A stretch of DNA of 64,000 nucleotides from IMG/VR virus record IMGVR_UViG_3300032770_000011, positions 1 to 64,000 of that record. The stretch is one strand, 5' to 3'. Both the position numbers and the translations under genes were made by a program. Of this stretch, positions 2,434-63,812 are shown piece after piece. Source of the stretch: a virus. The notes under the pieces were generated by a model. The model ran no database searches, was not told the DNA's origin, and was given only the letters and a program-made list of their open reading frames with translations. How positions within the stretch are numbered: the stretch's first letter is position 1; each line of letters begins with the position of its first letter.

Positions 2434-3318
2434 ATGGCAATCCGAATAGAAGTCAGAAATCAGGCAGAATTTGATGCTTGCATCAAAGCTGGGAATATTG
2501 CTGTCGTTATCAATTGTAGCGTCGTAGCCAGGGAGAACTCTAGCGTCGAAGCCTGGGGGAACTCTAGCGTCGTAGCCAGGGAGAACTCTAGCGTCGAAGC
2601 CTGGGGGAACTCTAGCGTCGTAGCCTGGGGGAACTCTAGCGTCGAAGCCTGGGGGAACTCTAGCGTCGTAGCCTGGGAGAACTCTAGCGTCGTAGCCTGG
2701 GGGAACTCTAGCGTCGTAGCCTGGGGGAACTCTAGCGTCGTAGCCTGGGAGAACTCTAGCGTCGTAGCCTGGGGGAACTCTAGCGTCGTAGCCAGGGAGA
2801 ACTCTAGCGTCGTAGCCTGGGGGCTTGCCTTTATCCGGTGGTTCTCGTGCCTTAAGATCAAGGCATCTTTACAAGTTATCATCGCTAAAATCGGCGATGC
2901 TCCCGGTACCCAAGAAGGTGGTCGGATACTTCAATGCAATCTTCCCACAACACCAGCGGAGTGGTGTGAATTCTACGGCATCGAAGTCGCCGACGGTATC
3001 GCTATTCTATACAAGGCCGTCGATGATGACTACTCAACGCACAACGCCCGGCCTAAAAGCATCTTCTACACACCTGGCAATACCCCGTCAGCACCGGACT
3101 GGGATGGCGGTTTGGCTGAATGTGGTGGTGGGCTGCACTTCTCGCCTTCTACGCAAATGGCGCTAAGTTTCAATTCTTCGGCCAAGAAGTTTGTTGGCTG
3201 TCCAGTACGGGTAGAAGACATCGTCGTTCATCCAAAAGGCCAATACCCTGAGAAGGTAAAGGCCAAAGGATGTACCGCACCCGTCTTCGAAGTCAATCGG
3301 AAAGGGGAACGGCTATGA
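2434..3318 (+). CDS. octapeptide-repeat protein with a conserved phage C-terminal domain (DUF7666-like)
   Basis: about 13 x SSV(V/E)A(W/R)(G/E)N, then LYKAV...PDWD...ECGGGLHF...KVKA motifs; strong RBS. Confidence 0.75.
   Translation: MAIRIEVRNQAEFDACIKAGNIAVVINCSVVARENSSVEAWGNSSVVARENSSVEAWGNSSVVAWGNSSVEAWGNSSVVAWENSSVVAWGNSSVVAWGNSSVVAWENSSVVAWGNSSVVARENSSVVAWGLAFIRWFSCLKIKASLQVIIAKIGDAPGTQEGGRILQCNLPTTPAEWCEFYGIEVADGIAILYKAVDDDYSTHNARPKSIFYTPGNTPSAPDWDGGLAECGGGLHFSPSTQMALSFNSSAKKFVGCPVRVEDIVVHPKGQYPEKVKAKGCTAPVFEVNRKGERL
2517..2823 (+). repeat. 24-bp coding tandem repeat (about 13 units)
   Basis: TAGCGTCG(T/A)AGCC(T/A)GGG(G/A)GAACTC. Confidence 0.95.
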
Positions 3319-3407
3319 TCAAATCCCTCGTCGAGGAATCCCTCGCATTAGTCGCTCTCGGCCTATTTGCCGCGATGCTACTCGTCTGGGCAGCGGTGCT
3401 CTCGTGA
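3315..3407 (+). CDS. small membrane peptide (30 aa, MIKSLVEESLALVALGLFAAMLLVWAAVLS)
   Basis: ATGA overlap; single TM helix. Confidence 0.55.
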   Translation: MIKSLVEESLALVALGLFAAMLLVWAAVLS

Positions 3408-3429
3408 TGCACTCTGTCCGTATATCTAT

Positions 3430-3521
3430 GCCTTGCCTTGCTCGGGTGCGGTGTGGTTGGGTACTCCTGGGCGGTGTTGGGCTCGGTCTGGTCAGGTATG
3501 GCATGGCTACTCAAATAGCCA
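3430..3521 (+). ncRNA. GGY-NN pentamer array A with terminal hairpin (candidate guide RNA)
   Basis: 16 consecutive 5-nt units: GCC TT GCC TT GCT CG GGT GC GGT GT GGT TG GGT AC TCC TG GGC GG TGT TG GGC TC GGT CT GGT CA GGT AT GGC AT GGC TA; hairpin TGGCTA-ctcaaa-TAGCCA; intergenic. Confidence 0.75.
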
Positions 3522-3536
3522 AAGGAGAAAAATAAC

Positions 3537-3728
3537 ATGACGTTACACAGTGTACGCTTCTACCGCTCAACAACGGAACCTGGGGTTTACCACGCCACGT
3601 GCTCTTGCGGCTGGGCAATGAGCGGGGACCTGCAAGAACTTCAGACCCGTGCTGCAACCCACGATCTGGACGAAATCCGAGAGCCGCCACTGCGGAAGGA
3701 AGGTTTCGTTTCCGGATTGCCGGACTGA
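3537..3728 (+). CDS. small putative Zn-binding protein (HATCSCGW...H)
   Basis: AAGGAGA RBS; CxC plus His residues. Confidence 0.65.
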   Translation: MTLHSVRFYRSTTEPGVYHATCSCGWAMSGDLQELQTRAATHDLDEIREPPLRKEGFVSGLPD

Positions 3729-3746
3729 AAACATAGGAGAATGAAA

Positions 3747-3977
3747 ATGAACAAGCAGCGGAGAAAGGACCTGCGCGTAGCGTGGGATCACCTTGAAAGG
3801 GCGAAGGAGATCATCGAGACTGCCCAAAGCGAGGAGCAGGACTCTTTCGATAATCTCCCCGAAAATATGCAAGGTGGTGACCAGGGACAAAAGCTGGAAG
3901 AGAACGTGGACGCTCTACAAACCGCCTTCGATTCGTGCGAGGAAGCTTTATCCTCACTTGAAGTTCTAGTAGAGTAA
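3747..3977 (+). CDS. conserved phage helical protein (MNKQRRK...EEQDSFDNLPENMQ)
   Basis: CATAGGAGA RBS; acidic helical sequence of a common phage family. Confidence 0.7.
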   Translation: MNKQRRKDLRVAWDHLERAKEIIETAQSEEQDSFDNLPENMQGGDQGQKLEENVDALQTAFDSCEEALSSLEVLVE

Positions 3978-3978
3978 A

Positions 3979-4071
3979 CAGCTTGGCTAAGTTGACGGCC
4001 TGGGCGAGCGGAAACGCTCTCTCCTATGCAGGAGCCTGGCGGGGACCCTGATAAAGTCAACATCCCCGCTA
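3979..4071 (+). ncRNA. candidate structured RNA (possible pseudoknot)
   Basis: GAGCG-GAAA-CGCTC, CTCCT-ATGC-AGGAG and TGGCGGGGA/TCCCCGCTA stems; GTTGAC (3991-3996) complements loop GTCAAC (4056-4061). Confidence 0.4.
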
Positions 4072-4079
4072 CCTAATTT

Positions 4080-4415
4080 ATGGAGTACCTTCAAATGGAA
4101 AAGTCTTGGTTCATCTATAAGCTCAGTAATCTTTCTCTGCACGGCTGGCGTTCCTTTGGCGTAAAGCACGAGCAAATCAAAGACAACCGTGATATTTCTG
4201 CTCTTGCCCGCGCAGTAAAGTTATTGGAGGACTGCTTTCCTGAAATTGATTGGTTTAATCAGTACCACGAGTTTTGGGTTTTGGAGTGTCCGTGCGAGCA
4301 GCCTTTTGTTTGCGTCCGCCCTAATACAAACCCTTATGAAGCCGGTTACATTGTGTCGCCAATTAAACTTTCCTACCTCCCTACAGACGAAGTTTGGGAG
4401 AGAAAGTCCAAGTGA
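4080..4415 (+). CDS. hypothetical protein (start possibly ATG 4095)
   Basis: ORF track; GGAG precedes ATG 4095. Confidence 0.6.
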   Translation: MEYLQMEKSWFIYKLSNLSLHGWRSFGVKHEQIKDNRDISALARAVKLLEDCFPEIDWFNQYHEFWVLECPCEQPFVCVRPNTNPYEAGYIVSPIKLSYLPTDEVWERKSK

Positions 4416-4849
4416 AGATCATTGCCTTCGATCTCGGTAAACATTTTGCCTGGGCACACAACGCCCCGTACACCTGCGGCTATGTCGAACTGCAGGGCGT
4501 CAGAGCACACCGCTTCTGTCAGCTAATGAATTACCTACTCAAGCTGAAAGAGTTGAGGACTGCAGAAGTTGCCATATTTGAGTGCCCCTTTGCACGGGGG
4601 AGGGACGCAACAAGGTCTTTGTGGGGCTATGCCGGAGTCATCGAGGCCTGCGCTACAAAGTTGGGGTTGCCTGTGCTCGATGCAGCAACCCCCACAATAA
4701 AAGCCTTCGCAGCCAACCATGGAAAAGCACCAAAAAATGACATGATGAAAGCTGCTAAAACTATGGGCTATAGAGGCTCGAACGAACACGAAGCCGATGC
4801 TTGGTGCTTATTAAAATTTGCCGAATCTACTCTTGAACGTGTTACTTAG
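4412..4849 (+). CDS. ruvC: RuvC-like Holliday junction resolvase
   Basis: IIAFDLG, IFECP, TIKAFAANHGKAPK and HEADA motifs; GTGA start/stop overlap. Confidence 0.8.
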   Translation: MKIIAFDLGKHFAWAHNAPYTCGYVELQGVRAHRFCQLMNYLLKLKELRTAEVAIFECPFARGRDATRSLWGYAGVIEACATKLGLPVLDAATPTIKAFAANHGKAPKNDMMKAAKTMGYRGSNEHEADAWCLLKFAESTLERVT

Positions 4850-4861
4850 AGTATGTAGACT
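4833..4861 (+). promoter_or_regulatory. sigma70-like promoter for array B and the RAMP gene
   Basis: TTGAAC (4833-4838), 17 nt, TAGACT (4856-4861); predicted start near 4868 coincides with the first GGT unit. Confidence 0.55.
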
Positions 4862-4867
4862 TATTGT

Positions 4868-4961
4868 GGTGTGGTTCGATCGGCGCGCCGGTCTGGTGCG
4901 GTAATCTGGGGTGTGCTTCGGCTAGCTACGGCATGGCAAGGTTTCTCATAGTTAGAGAAAC
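4868..4961 (+). ncRNA. GGY-NN pentamer array B with terminal hairpin (candidate guide RNA)
   Basis: 4890-4942: GGT CT GGT GC GGT AA TCT GG GGT GT GCT TC GGC TA GCT AC GGC AT GGC AA GGT; preceded by an out-of-register GGT GT GGT TC GAT; hairpin GTTTCTC-atagtta-GAGAAAC. Confidence 0.75.
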
Positions 4962-4976
4962 TTAAGGAGATAATAA

Positions 4977-5582
4977 ATGGAACGGAAAGCATTGCGAATT
5001 GTTGAACCAACTAACGGCGCAGAAGAAACAATAGGCTATTCAGAGCCATACACTGTAACTGTAACAATCGAGGGTTCTGCTGATTTACTGTTCCACCGTT
5101 GGAATGCGGAAGCTATTGAAGCAAAGTCAAAGACCAGCAAAAACAGTAAAGGTAGAACTACCGATGACGTAGAAACCTACGTCTACCGTGATGAGTACAA
5201 CAATATCTGTATTCCGGGGCCGTACCTTCGGGGTGCTATTATTGGTGCAGCAAAGTTCCGCCAAGACCCGCGCTCCCCCAGAAAATCTGCAATGGATTTG
5301 TACAAAGCCGGGGTGGTTGTCCCTACTCTACTTGCGTCGTTGGGCGTGAAGAAGTGGGACTACTTAGACAAGCGTCGCGTCACAATTCAACGTAACGGGA
5401 TCAATCGTACCCGCCCAGCCATGAAGGTCGGTTGGAAAGCTACCTTTGAAATCATGGTTATGTTGCCAGAATATATTGATCGTATTGCGCTTCGAGAAAC
5501 AATTGAGGCTGCGGGACGGCTTGTTGGTGTCGGAGACTTCCGACCTACTTATGGACGCTTTGGTATTATCAAATTCAAATGA
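4977..5582 (+). CDS. solo Cas7/RAMP-like protein (candidate Vipr-like RNA-guided effector)
   Basis: N-terminal strand VTVTIEGSADLLFH, IPGPYLRGAI (RAMP IPgss(L/I)KGa-like), RP..W..TFEI, C-terminal Gly-rich loop GVGDFRPTYGRF; no other cas genes in the window. Confidence 0.75.
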   Translation: MERKALRIVEPTNGAEETIGYSEPYTVTVTIEGSADLLFHRWNAEAIEAKSKTSKNSKGRTTDDVETYVYRDEYNNICIPGPYLRGAIIGAAKFRQDPRSPRKSAMDLYKAGVVVPTLLASLGVKKWDYLDKRRVTIQRNGINRTRPAMKVGWKATFEIMVMLPEYIDRIALRETIEAAGRLVGVGDFRPTYGRFGIIKFK

Positions 5583-41666: not shown

Positions 41667-42767
41667 TTAAGCGGTGGACTTACGATCCTTCAAGGAAATG
41701 ACGTTGTCGGGAACAGGTTCGCAGTGCAAAGTGCGCCAATGCTCGATGTAGTCGGCGGCTTTGCGCAAGAACTCTGGATTATCCTTAAAGTAGCCAAGCG
41801 CAATATTATGATTCTTACAGAGAAGACCGCGTACTTTACCATTGCTGTGATCGTGGTCTACTGAAAGAATATAAGCGCGTCCTGTTCTGTCGGGCGTAGG
41901 CATCTGCCCACAGATTGCGCAGACACCGTTCTGCTCCGCAAGTTTTGCTTTGTACAACGCAGCGCTGATTCCAAATTTCTTCAGCAACCGCTTATTCAAG
42001 TAGTAATCAGGATCGGAACTCTTCCTACGAGCGTTACGCGCCTTGATCCCTTCCCGAGTACGGTTATTGAACTCCGGCATAACCCAGTGTGTATTACCGG
42101 GGCCAAGGAGCTTTGCTGAGTCTTTAGCTGCAAGTACATAGCTTCGATCCGGTGGAAATCCTACCTCAGCAAATAGCTCAATAGGGCTACCCCAAGCATG
42201 CTTACCGCCAGTCACAAAGTTCAGCTTGCGCCAAACCCGTTTAGCATGATGGTTAGCGTCAGAAAACGCTTGCTGAAGAGGAGGGTCTTTACGGAGTTCA
42301 ATCCCTTCAGCTTTCGCCTTCTCAAGTGCGGCAGCAGCTTCTTCAACTGTCTTAAAGTGGCTACCAATAGCGCGAGAACCACCAGGCCCATAAAGGTGGG
42401 CTTGGAACCTACCATTCTTAGAGCGGGAGACGCCCTTAACGCCAGTGCTGTTTGTAACTCGTAAGCCTTGGTACTTCAGGACAGTCTCACTCTTCGACTG
42501 GGGAACAAGGTTCTCGATGTGCGTGTTCCCTGGATTACCGTCCTTGAAGGCGAGGTCCGCTGGGGGCCACTCACCGTGATGCCAGAACCAAACGAGGTGA
42601 TGTAAAGGAACGGTTTCACCGTCAACGCCAGCATAGCGGTAACGTTCTTTATTACCGCCAACAACATCACCGACCTTTACACGGGGCGATAGCCGAAGCT
42701 TGTAGCGAAGCTGCCCGGCAGTAGCGTCGTAATCGTAGAGAGTGCGGACTCGCGCAAGTGTGATCAT
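41667..42767 (-). CDS. homing endonuclease: degenerate HNH/AP2-like N-terminus plus endonuclease VII domain
   Basis: GGAGG RBS before ATG 42767; QNGVCAICG...VDHDHSNGKVRGLLC..HN.ALG. Confidence 0.8.
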   Translation of the reverse strand: MITLARVRTLYDYDATAGQLRYKLRLSPRVKVGDVVGGNKERYRYAGVDGETVPLHHLVWFWHHGEWPPADLAFKDGNPGNTHIENLVPQSKSETVLKYQGLRVTNSTGVKGVSRSKNGRFQAHLYGPGGSRAIGSHFKTVEEAAAALEKAKAEGIELRKDPPLQQAFSDANHHAKRVWRKLNFVTGGKHAWGSPIELFAEVGFPPDRSYVLAAKDSAKLLGPGNTHWVMPEFNNRTREGIKARNARRKSSDPDYYLNKRLLKKFGISAALYKAKLAEQNGVCAICGQMPTPDRTGRAYILSVDHDHSNGKVRGLLCKNHNIALGYFKDNPEFLRKAADYIEHWRTLHCEPVPDNVISLKDRKSTA

Positions 42768-42872
42768 AGAAACCTCCAACCCTAGAAAGTTAGGGTTGGG
42801 AAGTATACTATTTTCAACTGCGCGAGCCAACATGTTTGTTTTCTGCCTTGGTGCAGAGATTATCCAGACACA

Positions 42873-59226: not shown

Positions 59227-59574
59227 TCAGTCTGCCGCCCGCCGCCACCCTTCCGGAACATGCTCACGCGCCGTGATAACCTTGTAAGTACCGGGCTTGA
59301 ATCCAAGCGGCTCATGGGTATCAAACTCACGTAGATGATTCAGCACGTCTGGCTTTTCCACGACGAGCAGGCAATCCAAGATTGAATCCGGCAGCTTATA
59401 CATCATGGTGCGTTCGGCTTCCATGACGTGGTGGTGGCCGGTTTCGGAATGCCCCACGATGACTTTGCCGTTCACGGGGGCAACCTTCTCGGCATTTGCC
59501 GGGACCTTAAAGTCATTGGGCAGCCTCACAAAGCGAAGTTCACCTTGCGCTGCAACAGTCTTAAACGTCTTCAT
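59227..59574 (-). CDS. His-motif protein, usual partner of DUF6745
   Basis: AQGE, GHSETGHHH, L.H...HE.L...PG.Y....RE. Confidence 0.75.
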   Translation of the reverse strand: MKTFKTVAAQGELRFVRLPNDFKVPANAEKVAPVNGKVIVGHSETGHHHVMEAERTMMYKLPDSILDCLLVVEKPDVLNHLREFDTHEPLGFKPGTYKVITAREHVPEGWRRAAD

Positions 59575-60860
59575 GTTCTAACCTCCGGTGGAATGAAGTC
59601 CTTAGCGTCCAACTGCCAAAGCCACGCTTGCGCAGCCAAGGCCGTTTTTATCGTAGGTGGTACTGGTAAGGCAAACATACGCCCAGTCGCGCATTGAACC
59701 CTTAGAAATTGCTCATTGGGAGCATCTGGCAAATTGACACGGAGTAGCGTGCCAATTTCAGGGTCGGAATCGGCATCGATAACCTTCGCGTTAAGACCAA
59801 GTAGAATATTATCCCAGCCGATGATCTCGCAGGCAGCGCGTCTTAGTTCTGCATTAGTCTGCTTCAGAGCAATTGCTGGGGTCAGCTTAGCCTTGTTCTC
59901 AATCCAGTTTGCAGGAATACGAACGCCGTGCCAATGGTAGAGAGACCAGCCGTCCCGCCAACGGTGCGACGGGCCGTTTTCGCAATGCGGTAAGTTACGG
60001 TCATCTTTCTTGATTATTTCTGGGAAGTCACTCACAAGGCAGAACTCCTCGTGCATAACTCGGAAACCGCCATGAATTGCAGCTTGTTCCCAATAATAGT
60101 AAGCGGCGTGCTCTTTGAGTTCTAGGCCAAGAATATCACGGCAAGCAGTCAGGTAACAGTCGTACCCAGCCCACATGTTACCACCCTGATAAACCTCTGA
60201 CCAACGCTTTGCACACTCAAGCCCAAGTTTCCCGCTCAGATTAAGGCAGGCCAACGCGGCTTGCTCCTCTGCTGTTCCGGTGGCGCTGTAGGTGGCGCTG
60301 GCGGTGGCGCTGGCGGTGGCGCTGTAGGTGGCGCTGTAGGTGGCGCTGGCGGTGGCGCTGTAGGTGGCGCTGGCGGTGGCGCTGGCGGTGGCGCTGTAGG
60401 TGGCGCTGTAGGTGGCGCTGTAGGTGGCGCTGGCGGTGGCGCTGTAGGTGGCGCTGGCGGTGGCGCTGGCGGTGGCGCTGTAGGTGGCGCTGTCGGTGGC
60501 GCTGTAGGTGGCGCTGTAGGTGGCGCTGTAGGTGGCGCTGTAGGTGGCGCTGTAGGTGGCGCTGGCGGTGGCGCTGTCGGTGGCGCTGTTTTTCTTATTT
60601 TTACGGTTATACCAGATTGCGGCGCTCGCTCCATAAGCAAAAGCCATCACGAGCGGCGAGGGCACAATAACAACTCGCGGTTTCTTAAGATTTGCCGCAG
60701 CGTAAAGACCTTCAATCGCCGGGATTATCTTTTCCGGCTCGATTGGCTCCGTTCGCATAGCTCTGGCAATCCAGAGTTTTGCGTGTTCGTCCATCCGACG
60801 CTTTTCATCAGCGGTTATCCCCCCATAAGCCCTGGTCTTTGTGCGAATAATCTTAGTCAA
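59571..60860 (-). CDS. DUF6745-like protein with SATx repeats
   Basis: V.SP; PHCENGPSHRWRDGWSLYHWHGVRIP; N.ELRR; C.TGR.FAL.VP. Confidence 0.75.
   Translation of the reverse strand: MTKIIRTKTRAYGGITADEKRRMDEHAKLWIARAMRTEPIEPEKIIPAIEGLYAAANLKKPRVVIVPSPLVMAFAYGASAAIWYNRKNKKNSATDSATASATYSATYSATYSATYSATYSATDSATYSATASATASATYSATASATYSATYSATYSATASATASATYSATASATYSATYSATASATASATYSATGTAEEQAALACLNLSGKLGLECAKRWSEVYQGGNMWAGYDCYLTACRDILGLELKEHAAYYYWEQAAIHGGFRVMHEEFCLVSDFPEIIKKDDRNLPHCENGPSHRWRDGWSLYHWHGVRIPANWIENKAKLTPAIALKQTNAELRRAACEIIGWDNILLGLNAKVIDADSDPEIGTLLRVNLPDAPNEQFLRVQCATGRMFALPVPPTIKTALAAQAWLWQLDAKDFIPPEVRT
60279..60588 (-). repeat. 12-bp coding tandem repeat (about 26 units)
   Basis: AGCGCCACC(TAC/GCC/GAC). 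Confidence 0.95.
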
Positions 60861-60914: not shown

Positions 60915-63812
60915 CTACACACCATACTGTTCCGCCACAGAGCGAGTGTTATGCTGAAAGCGACTGTCCTCCAGATCCATTGCCGAACTCTCTTCGGCCA
61001 GTGTCAACAATCCATTCTCGCGAGCCCAGTTCAGAAATTGCGTAACGGTATCGTGAAGGTCATCATGGTCTGCTTTCGGAAAGGAGGCACTCTGCCCAAT
61101 TACCTGCTCTGCCCATTTGGTATTCGGAGCCCAGATAGCATCATCATTGAAAAGCGGCACGACCGAATGCGTGCGCGAAACCTTGTCACCCACCGGCTCC
61201 AACAACTCCACACCGAAGTTCTCACGGGTAAATAGCCGCTTGATCTCGTCAGCAACATCCTGCCCTCGCGTCTTATTCTCGATCAATAGCCGCCTCACCT
61301 TGTAGCGTTTGCAGGTATCCCCAACCAGTTCAATCAATCCGAAGGATTCGCGCTGACGAGCGTCGAAGTTCACCTTCGCTTCACCTGGGAAAGCTTCTAC
61401 AAGCCGCCCACGCAAGGGCAATCGCTTTGCCCACGCATACATCAGCATAGCGCGGCGGTTCTTGGCCTTGTCCAGCCAGATGCCCCAGACCGTCATGGCA
61501 TTGTAGTCATTCTCCTCCTTGCGGCCATAAGACGTATCGACAGAGCCAACTACGAGTTCGAAGTGCGGAAACTCTTTCCTTGCCGGACCCCACTCCAATC
61601 CATATTCCTGCGCAACTTCGCCATTCCAATTCAACCACCAGTCCCGCTTGATAATACCACCGCCCTTGGGTACAGGTTCCTGCTGGAGACGACCAGCTGC
61701 CATGTAGGTTCCGAGCCGCGACTTGATGCGGGCGACTTCGGCTTCCCCGAAGCGTTCCGGCCACATCAATTCGCCTTCTTCCTCGCGCGGATCTTCCCAA
61801 GGCTCATCGTCGTCATATTGCGGCAACTTGACGGTCACATTGTGACGAAGCGTATCATGCTCCATCGGAATCATCAAGTGCGTCCAGTCCTCGTCGTCGC
61901 TATCCAGAATAACGCCAGAGAGGTCACGCTCATGCAGGCGCTGCATGACGACGACGATGGCGGACCGCTTCGGATCATTAAGGCGAGTGCCGGACAACTC
62001 CTTCCACCAGCTTTCCACTTTATTGCGATCAGCGTCCGTTTCAACTACCTTCTCGGTTTCTGTGTTATGAGGATCGTCACAGTTATGAACTAAAATCCCC
62101 TCAGCAAAATAGTTGTGTCCCGGAGCTACCCGGAGGTTGTAAGTAGCTGCTTCGTACCCGGCTCTCTCAACAGAGCAGACAGTTTTTCTTTCCACATCGC
62201 GCGGGATTTTGGACCTCCATGCATACCCCCGTGGCACCGCCCGCAGAGAGTAATCAAGTTCATTGGATCCAAGTTCTGCCGATTGTAGTCGATGTGGTGA
62301 ACCTGAAACGCTTGTCTTCCGTACCGATGAATACGCCCACAAAGACGACAGTTGTGGTTGTCCCGAGCTCGAATCAAAGCCTTGAATTCCTTGTTCCAAG
62401 CCTTTGGATATGTCCGGAGTTGTTGCCCGTGAACGTAGTTGCTGTTCCCAGCCCCCTTCATGCGTTGTGAATGTAAATTGTCTGCACAGCGTCGAGAACA
62501 GCAAAGAGCTGTCCCGTGCTTTTGGCGCCAAGAAAAAGCTACATAACTTATCAAAAAGAACTCCGCACAAACCACGCATGTACAGAGTTTCTTTCGCTTG
62601 ATTTTGCGACGCCCTACTCCGCTGCATTCGTACGAGCAGTACTTCCCTCCACCTTTCTTTGCGAAGCCGCTCTTCACTGAAAACGGCGTCCCGCAAACTT
62701 TGCATGTACGTTGAACTCTGCCGCCCTGCCATGCAGGGTTGTTCTGACCTACAGAAGCTTGACCAAAACATTGGTGACTGCAAAACATTCCCTTTATATT
62801 CTTCAATGACCGCCTGTAATGTGCAGCGCATTTGTAGAACAGCTTGCCACATTCTTCGCAAGAAACAGTCTTTCCTTTCCTTAAAGGATTTTTTGCGCGC
62901 CATAGAGTGGAACACGCTTTGCTGCAACACTTTTGATGACTCGAAGGTTTTGTACGGAACGTTTTGCCGCACTCTGGGCAAACTACCCAACGTGATGGCC
63001 CAGACGCAATCCCCGACGGCGACTTCTTTTGCTTTAATGTATCCCCGCCCTTCAACGAAGACGAGGTGGTCTTCAGTGCATCGAAGACTGCCAGAATCCC
63101 AACAGATTCTGACGGTTTCTCTTCCTGGGTTTTTCTCGTATTTCTCAACATCTTGCCAAATAACAGAGCCTTGGTATTCGCCTGCAATCTTCACTGAAAG
63201 CTGTTGCTCTACAAGTTGACCAATCGGAAGCCAGCCCTGATTCGTTAATACCCGCTCTTTATACGGAAGGCAAATGACAATATCACCACCGAGGCCGAGC
63301 AAAGATCCACTAACTGATGTAGACTGTCTAGAACCACCTAGGGTGTTGTCAAACTTCGCTTTCGTGTTCTGATCTTCAGTCAATTCGAATTTGCCGCCCC
63401 AGTATTTCTGATACCAGGGACTCAACAATAACCGCCGCATCGTGTTCGCAGAGCTCATAGCGAGAACGCCATTGTAGCTGCCACAAAGGAACTTGACCTT
63501 CGAGCCTGACCAATAGGATTCTTCTGCCCGCGCCCACGTCCAGGCAGGCCAGCAGATAGACGCTACAGTCGTCTTGGAACAACGGGGAGGAACGTTGATG
63601 AGAAGACGAGGGATCTGCCCTAGGGTCACTGCTTCAAGGTGATCGCAGATTGCATCGATCGCCCAGCATTGCTGATAGATAGCACTGTCTATACTAGACC
63701 AGCCACCTTGGAGAAATTCGGAAAGACTGTTTTCGTAACACTCTTTGGCTTCAAGAGTATGATAGCGTTCTATTTTCTCCCGAAGGGCTGCGAGCTTCTC
63801 CGCGTCCGCCAT
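60915..63812 (-). CDS. terL: terminase large subunit containing an intein
   Basis: LLINVPPRCSKT, Walker B DIVI/CDDP, VVMQRLH..DL.G, LMWPERF, DTS, IENK..G, DK.SR, FP..DHDD..D. Confidence 0.92.
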   Translation of the reverse strand: MADAEKLAALREKIERYHTLEAKECYENSLSEFLQGGWSSIDSAIYQQCWAIDAICDHLEAVTLGQIPRLLINVPPRCSKTTVASICWPAWTWARAEESYWSGSKVKFLCGSYNGVLAMSSANTMRRLLLSPWYQKYWGGKFELTEDQNTKAKFDNTLGGSRQSTSVSGSLLGLGGDIVICLPYKERVLTNQGWLPIGQLVEQQLSVKIAGEYQGSVIWQDVEKYEKNPGRETVRICWDSGSLRCTEDHLVFVEGRGYIKAKEVAVGDCVWAITLGSLPRVRQNVPYKTFESSKVLQQSVFHSMARKKSFKERKDCFLRRMWQAVLQMRCTLQAVIEEYKGNVLQSPMFWSSFCRSEQPCMAGRQSSTYMQSLRDAVFSEERLRKERWREVLLVRMQRSRASQNQAKETLYMRGLCGVLFDKLCSFFLAPKARDSSLLFSTLCRQFTFTTHEGGWEQQLRSRATTPDISKGLEQGIQGFDSSSGQPQLSSLWAYSSVRKTSVSGSPHRLQSAELGSNELDYSLRAVPRGYAWRSKIPRDVERKTVCSVERAGYEAATYNLRVAPGHNYFAEGILVHNCDDPHNTETEKVVETDADRNKVESWWKELSGTRLNDPKRSAIVVVMQRLHERDLSGVILDSDDEDWTHLMIPMEHDTLRHNVTVKLPQYDDDEPWEDPREEEGELMWPERFGEAEVARIKSRLGTYMAAGRLQQEPVPKGGGIIKRDWWLNWNGEVAQEYGLEWGPARKEFPHFELVVGSVDTSYGRKEENDYNAMTVWGIWLDKAKNRRAMLMYAWAKRLPLRGRLVEAFPGEAKVNFDARQRESFGLIELVGDTCKRYKVRRLLIENKTRGQDVADEIKRLFTRENFGVELLEPVGDKVSRTHSVVPLFNDDAIWAPNTKWAEQVIGQSASFPKADHDDLHDTVTQFLNWARENGLLTLAEESSAMDLEDSRFQHNTRSVAEQYGV
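62082..63272 (-). mobile_element. intein (397 aa) in the TerL Walker B motif
   Basis: starts CLPYKERVLT; block B CTEDH; ends YNLRVAPGHNYFAEGILVHN followed by Cys. Confidence 0.9.
62126..63187 (-). CDS. Zn-finger-repeat HNH endonuclease overprinted in the +1 frame within the intein (start uncertain)
   Basis: four CxxC..F...(F/Y/C)CS..C repeats; IRARDNHNCRLCG...VHHIDYNRQN.DPMNLITLCGRCH. Confidence 0.8.
   Translation of the reverse strand: MQANTKALLFGKMLRNTRKTQEEKPSESVGILAVFDALKTTSSSLKGGDTLKQKKSPSGIASGPSRWVVCPECGKTFRTKPSSHQKCCSKACSTLWRAKNPLRKGKTVSCEECGKLFYKCAAHYRRSLKNIKGMFCSHQCFGQASVGQNNPAWQGGRVQRTCKVCGTPFSVKSGFAKKGGGKYCSYECSGVGRRKIKRKKLCTCVVCAEFFLISYVAFSWRQKHGTALCCSRRCADNLHSQRMKGAGNSNYVHGQQLRTYPKAWNKEFKALIRARDNHNCRLCGRIHRYGRQAFQVHHIDYNRQNLDPMNLITLCGRCHGGMHGGPKSRAMWKEKLSALLREPGTKQLLTTSG

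What the first reader, a model, noticed from the sequence alone, without database searches (positions are those of the whole stretch)
3430..5582. Solo Cas7/RAMP-like gene with two GGY-NN pentamer RNA arrays: candidate phage RNA-guided system with a gapped guide code
Seen: a 201-aa ORF (4977-5582) has RAMP/Cas7-type hallmarks (first beta-strand, IPGxxLRGA, terminal G-rich loop GVGDFRPTYGRF), but there is no CRISPR array and no cas5/6/8/1 in the window. Directly upstream (4868-4961) and about 1.4 kb upstream (3430-3521) are intergenic tracts with 5-nt periodicity. Each unit is a near-constant GGY triplet plus a variable dinucleotide. Both tracts contain GGCATGGC near the 3' end, followed by a hairpin. 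Array B starts where a sigma70-like promoter predicts initiation. Established: Cas7 proteins polymerise along a guide RNA with a fixed nucleotide period. Inference: each protomer binds one GGY and displays NN, so the NN string specifies the target. This matches my recollection of the recently described VIPR architecture, which should be verified. With no nuclease partner evident, the likely function is binding or repressing DNA of competing phages or the host.
Basis: partly seen in the sequence, partly recalled or inferred. Interest (0 to 1): 0.95.

Follow-up and report, generated by a model that had tools for sequence, protein, structure and literature searches.

The report
Phage VIPR system aimed at sister phages
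This wetland phage carries a genuine example of the recently published VIPR system (a small Cas7-like protein plus guide RNAs built from five-letter repeats). Its two guides spell conserved parts of two genes as rival sister phages write them, while the phage's own altered copies of those genes lie right beside the guides.

Summary
The kind of system is already in print, in four bioRxiv preprints of April to October 2026.

- **Arrays.** The two GGY-NN pentamer tracts are the only ones in the 103-kb phage genome. In 77 of 80 homologous loci the same kind of array flanks vipr on the same strand.
- **Targets.** Under the published 1-nt-skip rule, guide A (13 units, 3430-3494) matches 24/26 positions in the orthologue of the adjacent small gene in a vipr-less sister phage. 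Guide B (9 units, 4885-4929) matches 17-18/18 positions of the V-Y-E/D-T-P-F-A-R-G motif of RuvC-like resolvase genes in 11 IMG/VR contigs. In the register checked on the sister phage, the skipped base is the codon's wobble position for both guides.
- **Self copies.** The phage's own copies score 62% and 72%, below the published 80% threshold.
- **Insertions.** The sister phage has abutting genes at both sites, so each guide is an insertion beside a probably resistant allele.
- **Accessory genes.** No vap gene was found, and SbcCD belongs to the phage backbone.

This scan has noted the guide-beside-resistant-allele layout before on other DNA. It is not in the two VIPR preprints I text-searched for it.

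The parts
3408..3536 (+). Module A: a 129-nt intercistronic insertion carrying vrRNA A and a ribosome-binding site for the next gene
   Evidence: In the sister phage L083 the two flanking genes abut with an ATGA stop/start overlap and no array.
3430..3494 (+). vrRNA A guide: 13 pentamer units (3 GCY, 8 GGY, 2 other)
   Evidence: The NN string matches L083 2945-2982 (+) at 24/26, with 10 consecutive perfect units and the skip base at codon position 3. The next-best hit is 19/26, and 100 shuffled guides reach 21 at most. The only two exact IMG/VR hits both lie in orthologues of the same gene.
3495..3521 (+). vrRNA A 3' end: three non-guide GGY units, followed by a small hairpin (3504-3521)
   Evidence: The three units do not match the target. 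Hairpin. GGCAA/GGCAT units recur at the 3' ends of relatives' vrRNAs.
3537..3728 (+). Own allele of the gene targeted by guide A (63 aa). The site equivalent to the target is 3585-3622.
   Evidence: The own site scores 16/26 (62%). Only 5 of 13 residues in the target window are identical, against 62% identity overall.
4394..4849 (+). RuvC-like resolvase, the own allele of the gene targeted by guide B. The site equivalent to the target is 4574-4599.
   Evidence: phrog_159 at E 1.5e-16. The own site scores 13/18 (72%), reading I-F-E-C-P-F-A-R-G instead of V-Y-E-T-P-F-A-R-G.
4850..4976 (+). Leader of vipr, containing vrRNA B. Together with vipr it forms one insertion between ruvC and sbcD.
   Evidence: ruvC and sbcD abut with an ATGA overlap in L083. 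L085 also lacks vipr upstream of sbcD.
4868..4884 (+). 5' pentamer-like stretch, 2 nt out of register with the rest of array B
   Evidence: The two in-register units directly 5' of the guide (4875-4884) do not match the target.
4885..4929 (+). vrRNA B guide: 9 pentamer units (5 GGY, 4 other)
   Evidence: Matches L083 3720-3745 (-) at 17/18 with the skip at codon position 3. The next-best hit is 14/18, and shuffled guides reach 16 at most. All 11 exact IMG/VR hits encode V-Y-E/D-T-P-F-A-R-G (one hit shows a stop in place of the R because its wobble base was left undetermined), and two of them are 18/18.
4930..4963 (+). vrRNA B 3' end: three non-guide units, followed by a hairpin (4939-4963)
   Evidence: These units are essentially unmatched in all 11 targets. 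Hairpin at -9.6 kcal/mol, z -2.3. Relatives end their vipr-proximal arrays with a GGTTT-type unit and a pyrimidine-rich tail.
4977..5582 (+). vipr: a minimal RAMP protein of 201 aa
5529..5563 (-). Site in vipr (the G-loop coding region) matched by a guide of another phage (L041)
   Evidence: 20/24 NN positions match (83%). The same guide scores 18/24 on its own vipr.

Best explanation
This is a vap-less VIPR system in a complete ~103-kb wetland phage. It has one Vipr protein gene and two single-guide vrRNA modules.

By the published mechanism, Vipr protomers polymerise on the pentamer scaffold, one per unit. They hide the GGY bases and present the NN dinucleotides, which pair with double-stranded DNA while skipping every third target base. 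The bound complex then blocks transcription.

Here guide A reads codons 17-29 of a small gene, and guide B reads the V-Y-E-T-P-F-A-R-G motif of the RuvC-like resolvase, as related phages write them. The phage's own copies have amino-acid changes at those sites and should escape.

The likely role is to silence the replication/recombination operon of closely related rivals during co-infection.

What is shown: the homology, the fold, the arrays, their association with vipr, the target matches, the self mismatches and the insertions.

What is inferred: that the guides are transcribed and processed, that Vipr binds them, that the targets are repressed, and that this gives a competitive benefit.
For: **Protein.**, with the contact residues taken from the structure preprint.

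**Arrays.**
- They are unique in the genome.
- 77 of 80 IMG/VR loci with a homologue carry same-strand arrays abutting vipr: 197 regions on the + strand against 8 on the - strand.
- NN entropy is 3.94 of 4 bits over 3,938 units.
- Near-identical loci differ by whole units.

**Targets.**
- Guide A scores 24/26 and guide B 17/18 in the sister phage, next to the insertion sites. Both have the wobble-position skip and both lie far above the shuffled-guide nulls.
- The exact gapped patterns recover only orthologues of the same two genes in the whole of IMG/VR.
- NN at non-GGY units match 17 of 18 positions.
- Guide A has the same sense as the mRNA, so it can only pair with DNA.

**Self.** No self hit reaches 80%.

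**Insertions.**
Against: - There is no expression or binding data for this locus.
- No convincing promoter precedes either array.
- Array B has a register slip and four non-GGY units. In SUSP1, perturbing GGY abolished silencing.
- The own ruvC site still matches 72%, and the 80% threshold comes from a Vipr only about 27% identical to this one.
- Guide B reads a conserved protein motif, so its 11 hits are not independent events.
Confidence: 0.88

Rival explanations
1. A decaying remnant. The arrays are degenerate leftovers (non-GGY units, register slip, only two guides) and the system no longer works.
For: Array B has only 8 GGY among its 12 units, and a 2-nt register slip at its 5' end. Relatives often carry far longer arrays.
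Against: The vipr ORF is intact and all GGY-contact residues are conserved. NN at the non-GGY units match the targets at 17/18 positions, which decay would not preserve. Close relatives (L004, L007, L010) show the same internal degeneracy.
Confidence: 0.05
2. The arrays act mainly in cis. As 5' leaders of o3537 and of vipr, they let Vipr bind its own mRNA and tune translation (autoregulation). The target matches would be secondary.
For: Both arrays sit directly before a ribosome-binding site and a start codon. In several relatives the pyrimidine-rich tail can pair with the purine-rich ribosome-binding region.
Against: In most homologous loci the arrays lie downstream of vipr. The window's hairpins do not cover the ribosome-binding sites. 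Cis regulation does not explain in-frame 24/26 and 18/18 matches to rival genes.
Confidence: 0.04
3. A nuclease-coupled variant. The overlapping downstream SbcD/SbcC genes act as accessory (vap-like) nucleases, so bound targets are cut rather than silenced.
For: The vipr stop codon overlaps the sbcD start. Published VIPR types III-V have nuclease or helicase vap genes.
Against: ruvC-sbcD-sbcC is conserved in the same order in the vipr-less relative L083, and L085 also has sbcD and sbcC without vipr upstream. None of the window's neighbours accompanies vipr in 81 other loci.
Confidence: 0.03
4. The pentamer tracts are DNA-level elements (bent DNA or protein-binding repeats) unrelated to the ORF.
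For: A 5-nt period is half a helical turn. There is no RNA evidence here.
Against: There is a strict strand bias relative to vipr (197 against 8 regions), the NN positions are hypervariable, and the NN strings decode to coding sequence.
Confidence: 0.01

Closest known systems
Type II VIPR of Escherichia phage SUSP1 and the Pseudomonas fulva prophage (bioRxiv 10.64898/2026.04.26.720920; structures in 10.64898/2026.04.26.720927; PDB chain 36pp_D)
   Same: A homologous Vipr protein with the same GGY-contact residues. GGY/NN pentamer vrRNAs on the same strand next to vipr. The 1-nt-skip code with the skip at the wobble position. Phage-borne. Targets on either DNA strand. No self-target.
   Different: - Only about 27% identical to the SUSP1-like Viprs of Felixounavirus phages.
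- No vap gene.
- The two guides are single modules placed as intercistronic inserts or mRNA leaders, not arranged in an array.
- Short hairpin tails preceded by three non-guide units, instead of a pseudoknot tail.
- Non-GGY scaffold units that still carry matching NN.
- The targets are core genes of sister phages, not satellites or prophage regulators.
Solo (orphan) vrRNAs of SUSP1-family phages and satellites (bioRxiv 10.64898/2026.10.15.759431)
   Same: A guide placed away from vipr (array A lies 1.4 kb upstream of it). Guides aimed at relatives. Self-match lower than non-self match.
   Different: Here the phage keeps vipr. The guide lies beside the phage's own diverged allele of its target. 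I found no mention of such linkage in that text.
Class 1 CRISPR Cas7 backbone (Csm3, Cmr4, type VII Cas7)
   Different: No CRISPR array, no Cas1 and no other cas genes. A 5-nt period instead of 6. The guide is gapped.
Free-standing homing endonuclease genes of T-even phages (Seg/Mob; intronless homing and marker exclusion; from my own knowledge)
   Same: A small cassette inserted between genes that abut in relatives. It recognises the neighbouring gene in relatives that lack the cassette, while the carrier's own allele differs at the site.
   Different: Recognition is by RNA guide, and the known activity is binding or silencing. No cleavage or gene conversion is shown.

Membership tests
VIPR system | Vipr protein homologous to characterised Vipr | tested here: met
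   phmmer against the PDB chain 36pp_D gives E 3.2e-5. The profile of 63 relatives gives E 7.9e-18 over residues 5-190 of 202.
VIPR system | Residues that hold G1, G2 and Y3 (SUSP1 H17, R138, D177, W178, R179) | tested here: met
   They align to H40, R146, D187, F188 (aromatic) and R189. All but H40 and F188 are listed as at least 90% conserved in A1.
VIPR system | vrRNA of tandem YNNGG (GGY/NN) units, 9-16 per RNA, on the vipr strand and flanking vipr | tested here: met
   16 and 12 units on the + strand. The same is seen in 77 of 80 homologous loci.
VIPR system | GGY conserved while NN is hypervariable | tested here: met
   NN entropy is 3.94 of 4 bits over 3,938 units. Unit-level turnover is seen between near-identical loci L002 and L003.
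VIPR system | Invariant structured 3' tail | tested here: inconclusive
   Both RNAs end with three non-guide units containing GGCATGGC, followed by a hairpin. With only two copies, no pseudoknot was found and there is no covariation test. Some relatives (L056) have a clear ~55-nt invariant tail.
VIPR system | Targets follow the 1-nt-skip rule, with the skip at the codon wobble position, at 80% NN match or more | tested here: met
   Guide A 24/26 (92%), guide B 17/18 to 18/18, both in wobble register.
VIPR system | No self-target at 80% or more | tested here: met
   No own-genome hit reaches 80%. The own alleles score 62% and 72%.
VIPR system | vrRNA is transcribed (~100 nt) and co-purifies with Vipr, and repression is reprogrammable | not testable with these tools
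   Needs sRNA-seq, pull-down and reporter assays.
VIPR system | Accessory vap gene (typical, not universal) | tested here: not met
   No neighbour is shared with 81 other vipr loci. The flanking genes are backbone genes also present in vipr-less relatives. I could not assign one of the seven published types, because the supplementary data are not held.
CRISPR-Cas (class 1) | CRISPR repeat-spacer array and adaptation or other cas genes | tested here: not met
   TRF finds no CRISPR-like array. There is no Cas1 in the genome.
Homing-type selfish cassette (works-like comparison only) | An insertion between genes that abut in relatives, recognising the adjacent gene of cassette-less relatives, with a resistant own allele | tested here: met
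   If guide and own allele were placed at random, the chance that both pairs lie within 300 nt is about 3.5e-5.
Homing-type selfish cassette (works-like comparison only) | Target cleavage and copying of the cassette into the rival genome | not testable with these tools
   No nuclease is linked to vipr across the loci, and no data on recombinants are available.

The most novel reading that the evidence does not exclude
Each guide and the adjacent altered allele of its target gene form a linked weapon-plus-immunity cassette. In co-infection it silences, or excludes, the sensitive allele of sister phages. It can spread among them by recombination without ever creating a self-targeting recombinant. 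This would be an RNA-guided counterpart of the free-standing homing endonuclease and marker-exclusion cassettes of T-even phages.

The three 3' non-guide units, and the tolerance of non-GGY scaffold units, would be rules of this Vipr clade.
Probability: 0.35. Interest if true: 0.75.

Novelty: new member of a known kind. Interest (0 to 1): 0.5.

Why it matters
VIPR was described only in 2026, and its natural targets were worked out mainly in E. coli and Pseudomonas systems.

This locus gives independent, purely computational support for the 1-nt-skip, wobble-skipping code in a Vipr only about 27% identical to the reference. It comes from an uncultured wetland phage.

It identifies essential core genes of sister phages as targets: a Holliday-junction resolvase motif and a small conserved gene.

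It also shows a clean before-and-after comparison, in which a sister phage has abutting genes at both sites. Single guides therefore arrive as discrete insertions beside a diverged, probably resistant allele.

If that linkage is functional, it explains how phages avoid self-targeting while fighting their closest relatives. It also suggests how guides spread without a Cas1-like adaptation machine.

The matched NN at non-GGY units hints that scaffold rules are looser than in SUSP1, which matters for engineering.

Tried and rejected
- **Structure without an alignment.** AlphaFold2 on the single sequence failed (pLDDT 37) and was replaced by an alignment-based model.
- **Target searches with wrong guide boundaries.** These used units 3445-3509 and 4890-4944, that is, including the three terminal units.
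  - Nothing found in IMG/VR or in the GTDB genomes.
  - Nothing found in the sister record with up to 3 mismatches.
  - One metagenome hit, L082 1602-1639(-). I reject it as chance: it matches the non-guide terminal units, misses the internal units, has its skip at codon position 1, and lies in a cellular-looking metabolic operon.
- **Rfam.** No match at the gathering threshold in the window, and nothing meaningful at E up to 10 across 3300-5100. Seventeen related loci showed no hammerhead between guides.
- **Promoter and terminator scan.** No + strand promoter was called.
- **Search for a conserved partner gene (vap).** The largest "clusters" were spurious ORFs inside the arrays. The rest are replication genes of sub-clades and are absent from this genome.
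- **Cross-targeting among the 80 vipr loci.** Only the L041 anti-vipr guide stood above the reversed-guide control.
- **RNA evidence.** No RNA holder was listed for this DNA.
- **Job not sent.** I did not send a complex-prediction job. Filament formation needs RNA, and a pass would not have changed my odds.
- **Terminal repeat.** The suspected repeat is only a 101-nt repeat.
Full report
**What is there.**
The region holds a 201-aa ORF (4977-5582) with a good ribosome-binding site, and two intergenic tracts with 5-nt periodicity.

I counted GGY at 5-nt spacing in sliding runs of ten units, over both strands of the window and of the whole genome. Only these two places score 6 or more (scores 8 and 7). 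Twenty Markov-simulated genomes never exceed 5.

The genome is a single IMG/VR virus record of 103,399 bp, rated complete by CheckV, from a wetland metagenome. It encodes a portal, a terminase and large virion proteins. It has no close relative among isolated phages.

**The kind of system is published.**
A literature search found the VIPR preprints. Their main points:
- Vipr is a minimal RAMP protein.
- vrRNAs are 9-16 GGY/NN pentamers followed by a 3' tail.
- One protomer binds per unit.
- NN pairs with double-stranded DNA while skipping every third target base, usually the codon wobble base.
- The outcome is transcriptional silencing of competing mobile elements.
- Seven types, solo vrRNAs and metagenome-wide pentamer arrays are also in print.

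**The protein is a Vipr.**
- Pfam has no match. PHROGs gives only an unannotated family.
- The protein alone hits the PDB chain named "SUSP1 Vipr protein" at E 3.2e-5. A profile of 63 diverse relatives hits it at E 7.9e-18 over nearly its full length.
- The SUSP1 residues that hold the GGY bases (H17, R138, D177, W178, R179) align to H40, R146, D187, F188 and R189.
- With the alignment, AlphaFold2 gives pLDDT 93.3.
- The family is large: 7,116 hits in the 90%-identity database, and 1,260 cluster representatives at 50% identity.

**The arrays go with the gene.**
- In 80 IMG/VR loci that encode a homologue (53-71% identical), 77 have GGY-NN arrays abutting vipr, upstream, downstream or both.
- There are 197 array regions on the vipr strand against 8 on the other strand.
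- The isolated phage DSL-LC04 (59% identical) has a 320-nt array-filled region upstream of the gene.
- Over 3,938 units the NN dinucleotide has 3.94 of 4 bits of entropy.
- Nearly identical loci differ by whole units.

**Context.**
No gene next to vipr in the window is found next to vipr in any of the 81 other loci, and no conserved partner of those loci exists in this genome.

A related 100-kb phage (L083/L084/L086) has the same gene order, but ruvC abuts sbcD and the two small genes abut each other. Both junctions have ATGA overlaps, and there is no vipr and no array. A second relative (L085) also lacks vipr before sbcD.

So 3408-3536 (module A) and 4850-5578 (leader B plus vipr) are two separate insertions. 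SbcCD and RuvC are backbone genes, not accessory genes.

**Targets.**

I then scanned all the fetched loci with the published rule. The best hits of both guides fell in the sister phage, beside the insertion sites.

*Guide A*
- The 13 units 3430-3494 match codons 17-29 of the orthologue of the gene immediately downstream at 24 of 26 positions.
- Ten units in a row are perfect, and the skipped base is at codon position 3.
- The next-best hit in 1.43 million positions is 19/26, and 100 shuffled guides reach 21 at most.
- An exact scan of IMG/VR with the ten perfect units returns only two contigs. Both are orthologues of this gene in related 95-100 kb phages, in the same register.

*Guide B*
- The 9 units 4885-4929 match the antisense strand of the ruvC orthologue at 17 of 18 positions, again with the skip at the wobble position.
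- An exact scan returns 11 contigs. All encode V-Y-E/D-T-P-F-A-R-G on the sense strand (one shows a stop in place of the R because the wobble base was left undetermined). Six were confirmed as RuvC-like by tblastn. Two are perfect 18/18. None has arrays.
- Because the guide reads a protein motif, these hits share one cause and are not independent. Random hits, however, would not all be this motif.

*Features shared by the two guides*
- In both, the last three units never match, so they belong to the 3' end and not to the guide.
- NN at non-GGY units match 17 of 18 positions, so these units carry guide information.
- Guide A has the sense of the mRNA, so it can pair only with DNA.

**Self versus non-self.**
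The phage's own sites score 16/26 (guide A) and 13/18 (guide B), below the published 80% threshold.

The own small protein is identical to the sister's at only 5 of 13 residues in the target window, against 62% overall. The own RuvC reads I-F-E-C where rivals read V-Y-E-T.

Each guide lies within 300 nt of the own-genome equivalent of its target. Under random placement this would happen for both with a probability of about 3.5e-5.

**How it most likely works.**
The two RNAs are made from the + strand operon or from weak promoters of their own, which is not shown. Vipr coats and trims them. In a cell that also holds a related phage, the complexes bind that phage's small gene and ruvC. This blocks transcription through its replication/recombination operon, while the carrier's own alleles escape.

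The linkage of guide and resistant allele prevents recombinants that would target themselves. It may also let the pair spread as a unit. That last step is inference.

**Relation to earlier notes of this scan.**
After I had found the targets, a look-up showed that other agents had reported VIPR loci many times. In several other genomes they had reported the same layout of a guide beside a resistant allele. These notes are unchecked and I do not use them as evidence.

The layout is not mentioned in the two VIPR preprints I text-searched for it, the discovery paper and the competition paper.

**Verdict.**
This is a real, new member of a known and very recent class. Its natural targets are clearly decoded, and the comparison with the sister phage shows the insertions cleanly.

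The mechanism is inherited from the literature. The ecological role and the linked-cassette idea are inferences.

Noticed in passing
L041:4597-4656 (+) and window 5529-5563 (-): The first vrRNA downstream of vipr in IMGVR_UViG_3300043621_000102 spells the antisense of the G-loop coding region (G-D-F-R-P-T-Y-G-R-F) of other phages' vipr genes. It scores 20-21/24 in 32 loci and 20/24 on this window's vipr. On its own vipr it scores 18/24, and that copy uses an AGA arginine codon. It looks like an anti-VIPR guide of the kind reported in preprint 10.64898/2026.10.15.759431.
   Followed up: partly
L009, L025, L031, L056 (last 40 nt before vipr); window 4939-4963: Vipr-proximal arrays end with a GGTTT-type unit and a pyrimidine-rich tail. 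In several relatives this tail can pair with the purine-rich ribosome-binding region of vipr, which might couple guide loading to vipr translation.
   Followed up: no
window 2517-2823: A 24-nt tandem repeat, 12.8 copies at 92% match, inside ORF 2434-3318 (phrog_15773, function unknown). It is an 8-residue protein repeat.
   Followed up: no
window 60279-60589: A 12-nt tandem repeat, about 26 copies, inside ORF 59571-60860.
   Followed up: no
window 60915-63812 (-): The large terminase is 965 aa and aligns to other terminases in two pieces covering only about 55% of it.
   Followed up: partly
window 41667-42833 (-): A single ORF combines an HNH endonuclease domain (residues 20-179) and an endonuclease VII domain (residues 247-370).
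   Followed up: no
L074:1392-1468 (-): A Twister-P5 ribozyme match above Rfam's gathering score (40 bits, E 1.4e-4), about 2.6 kb upstream of a vipr homologue and on the opposite strand.
   Followed up: no
L085:1692-5404: In this relative a 3.7-kb block of small ORFs separates sbcD from sbcC, genes that overlap in the window and in L083.
   Followed up: no
L056:3060-3700 and L068:2812-4200: Downstream arrays in these relatives are clear multi-guide arrays. Each guide of 12-20 units is followed by an invariant tail of about 55-100 nt. This differs from the window's short hairpin tails. Rfam did not recognise any ribozyme in them.
   Followed up: partly
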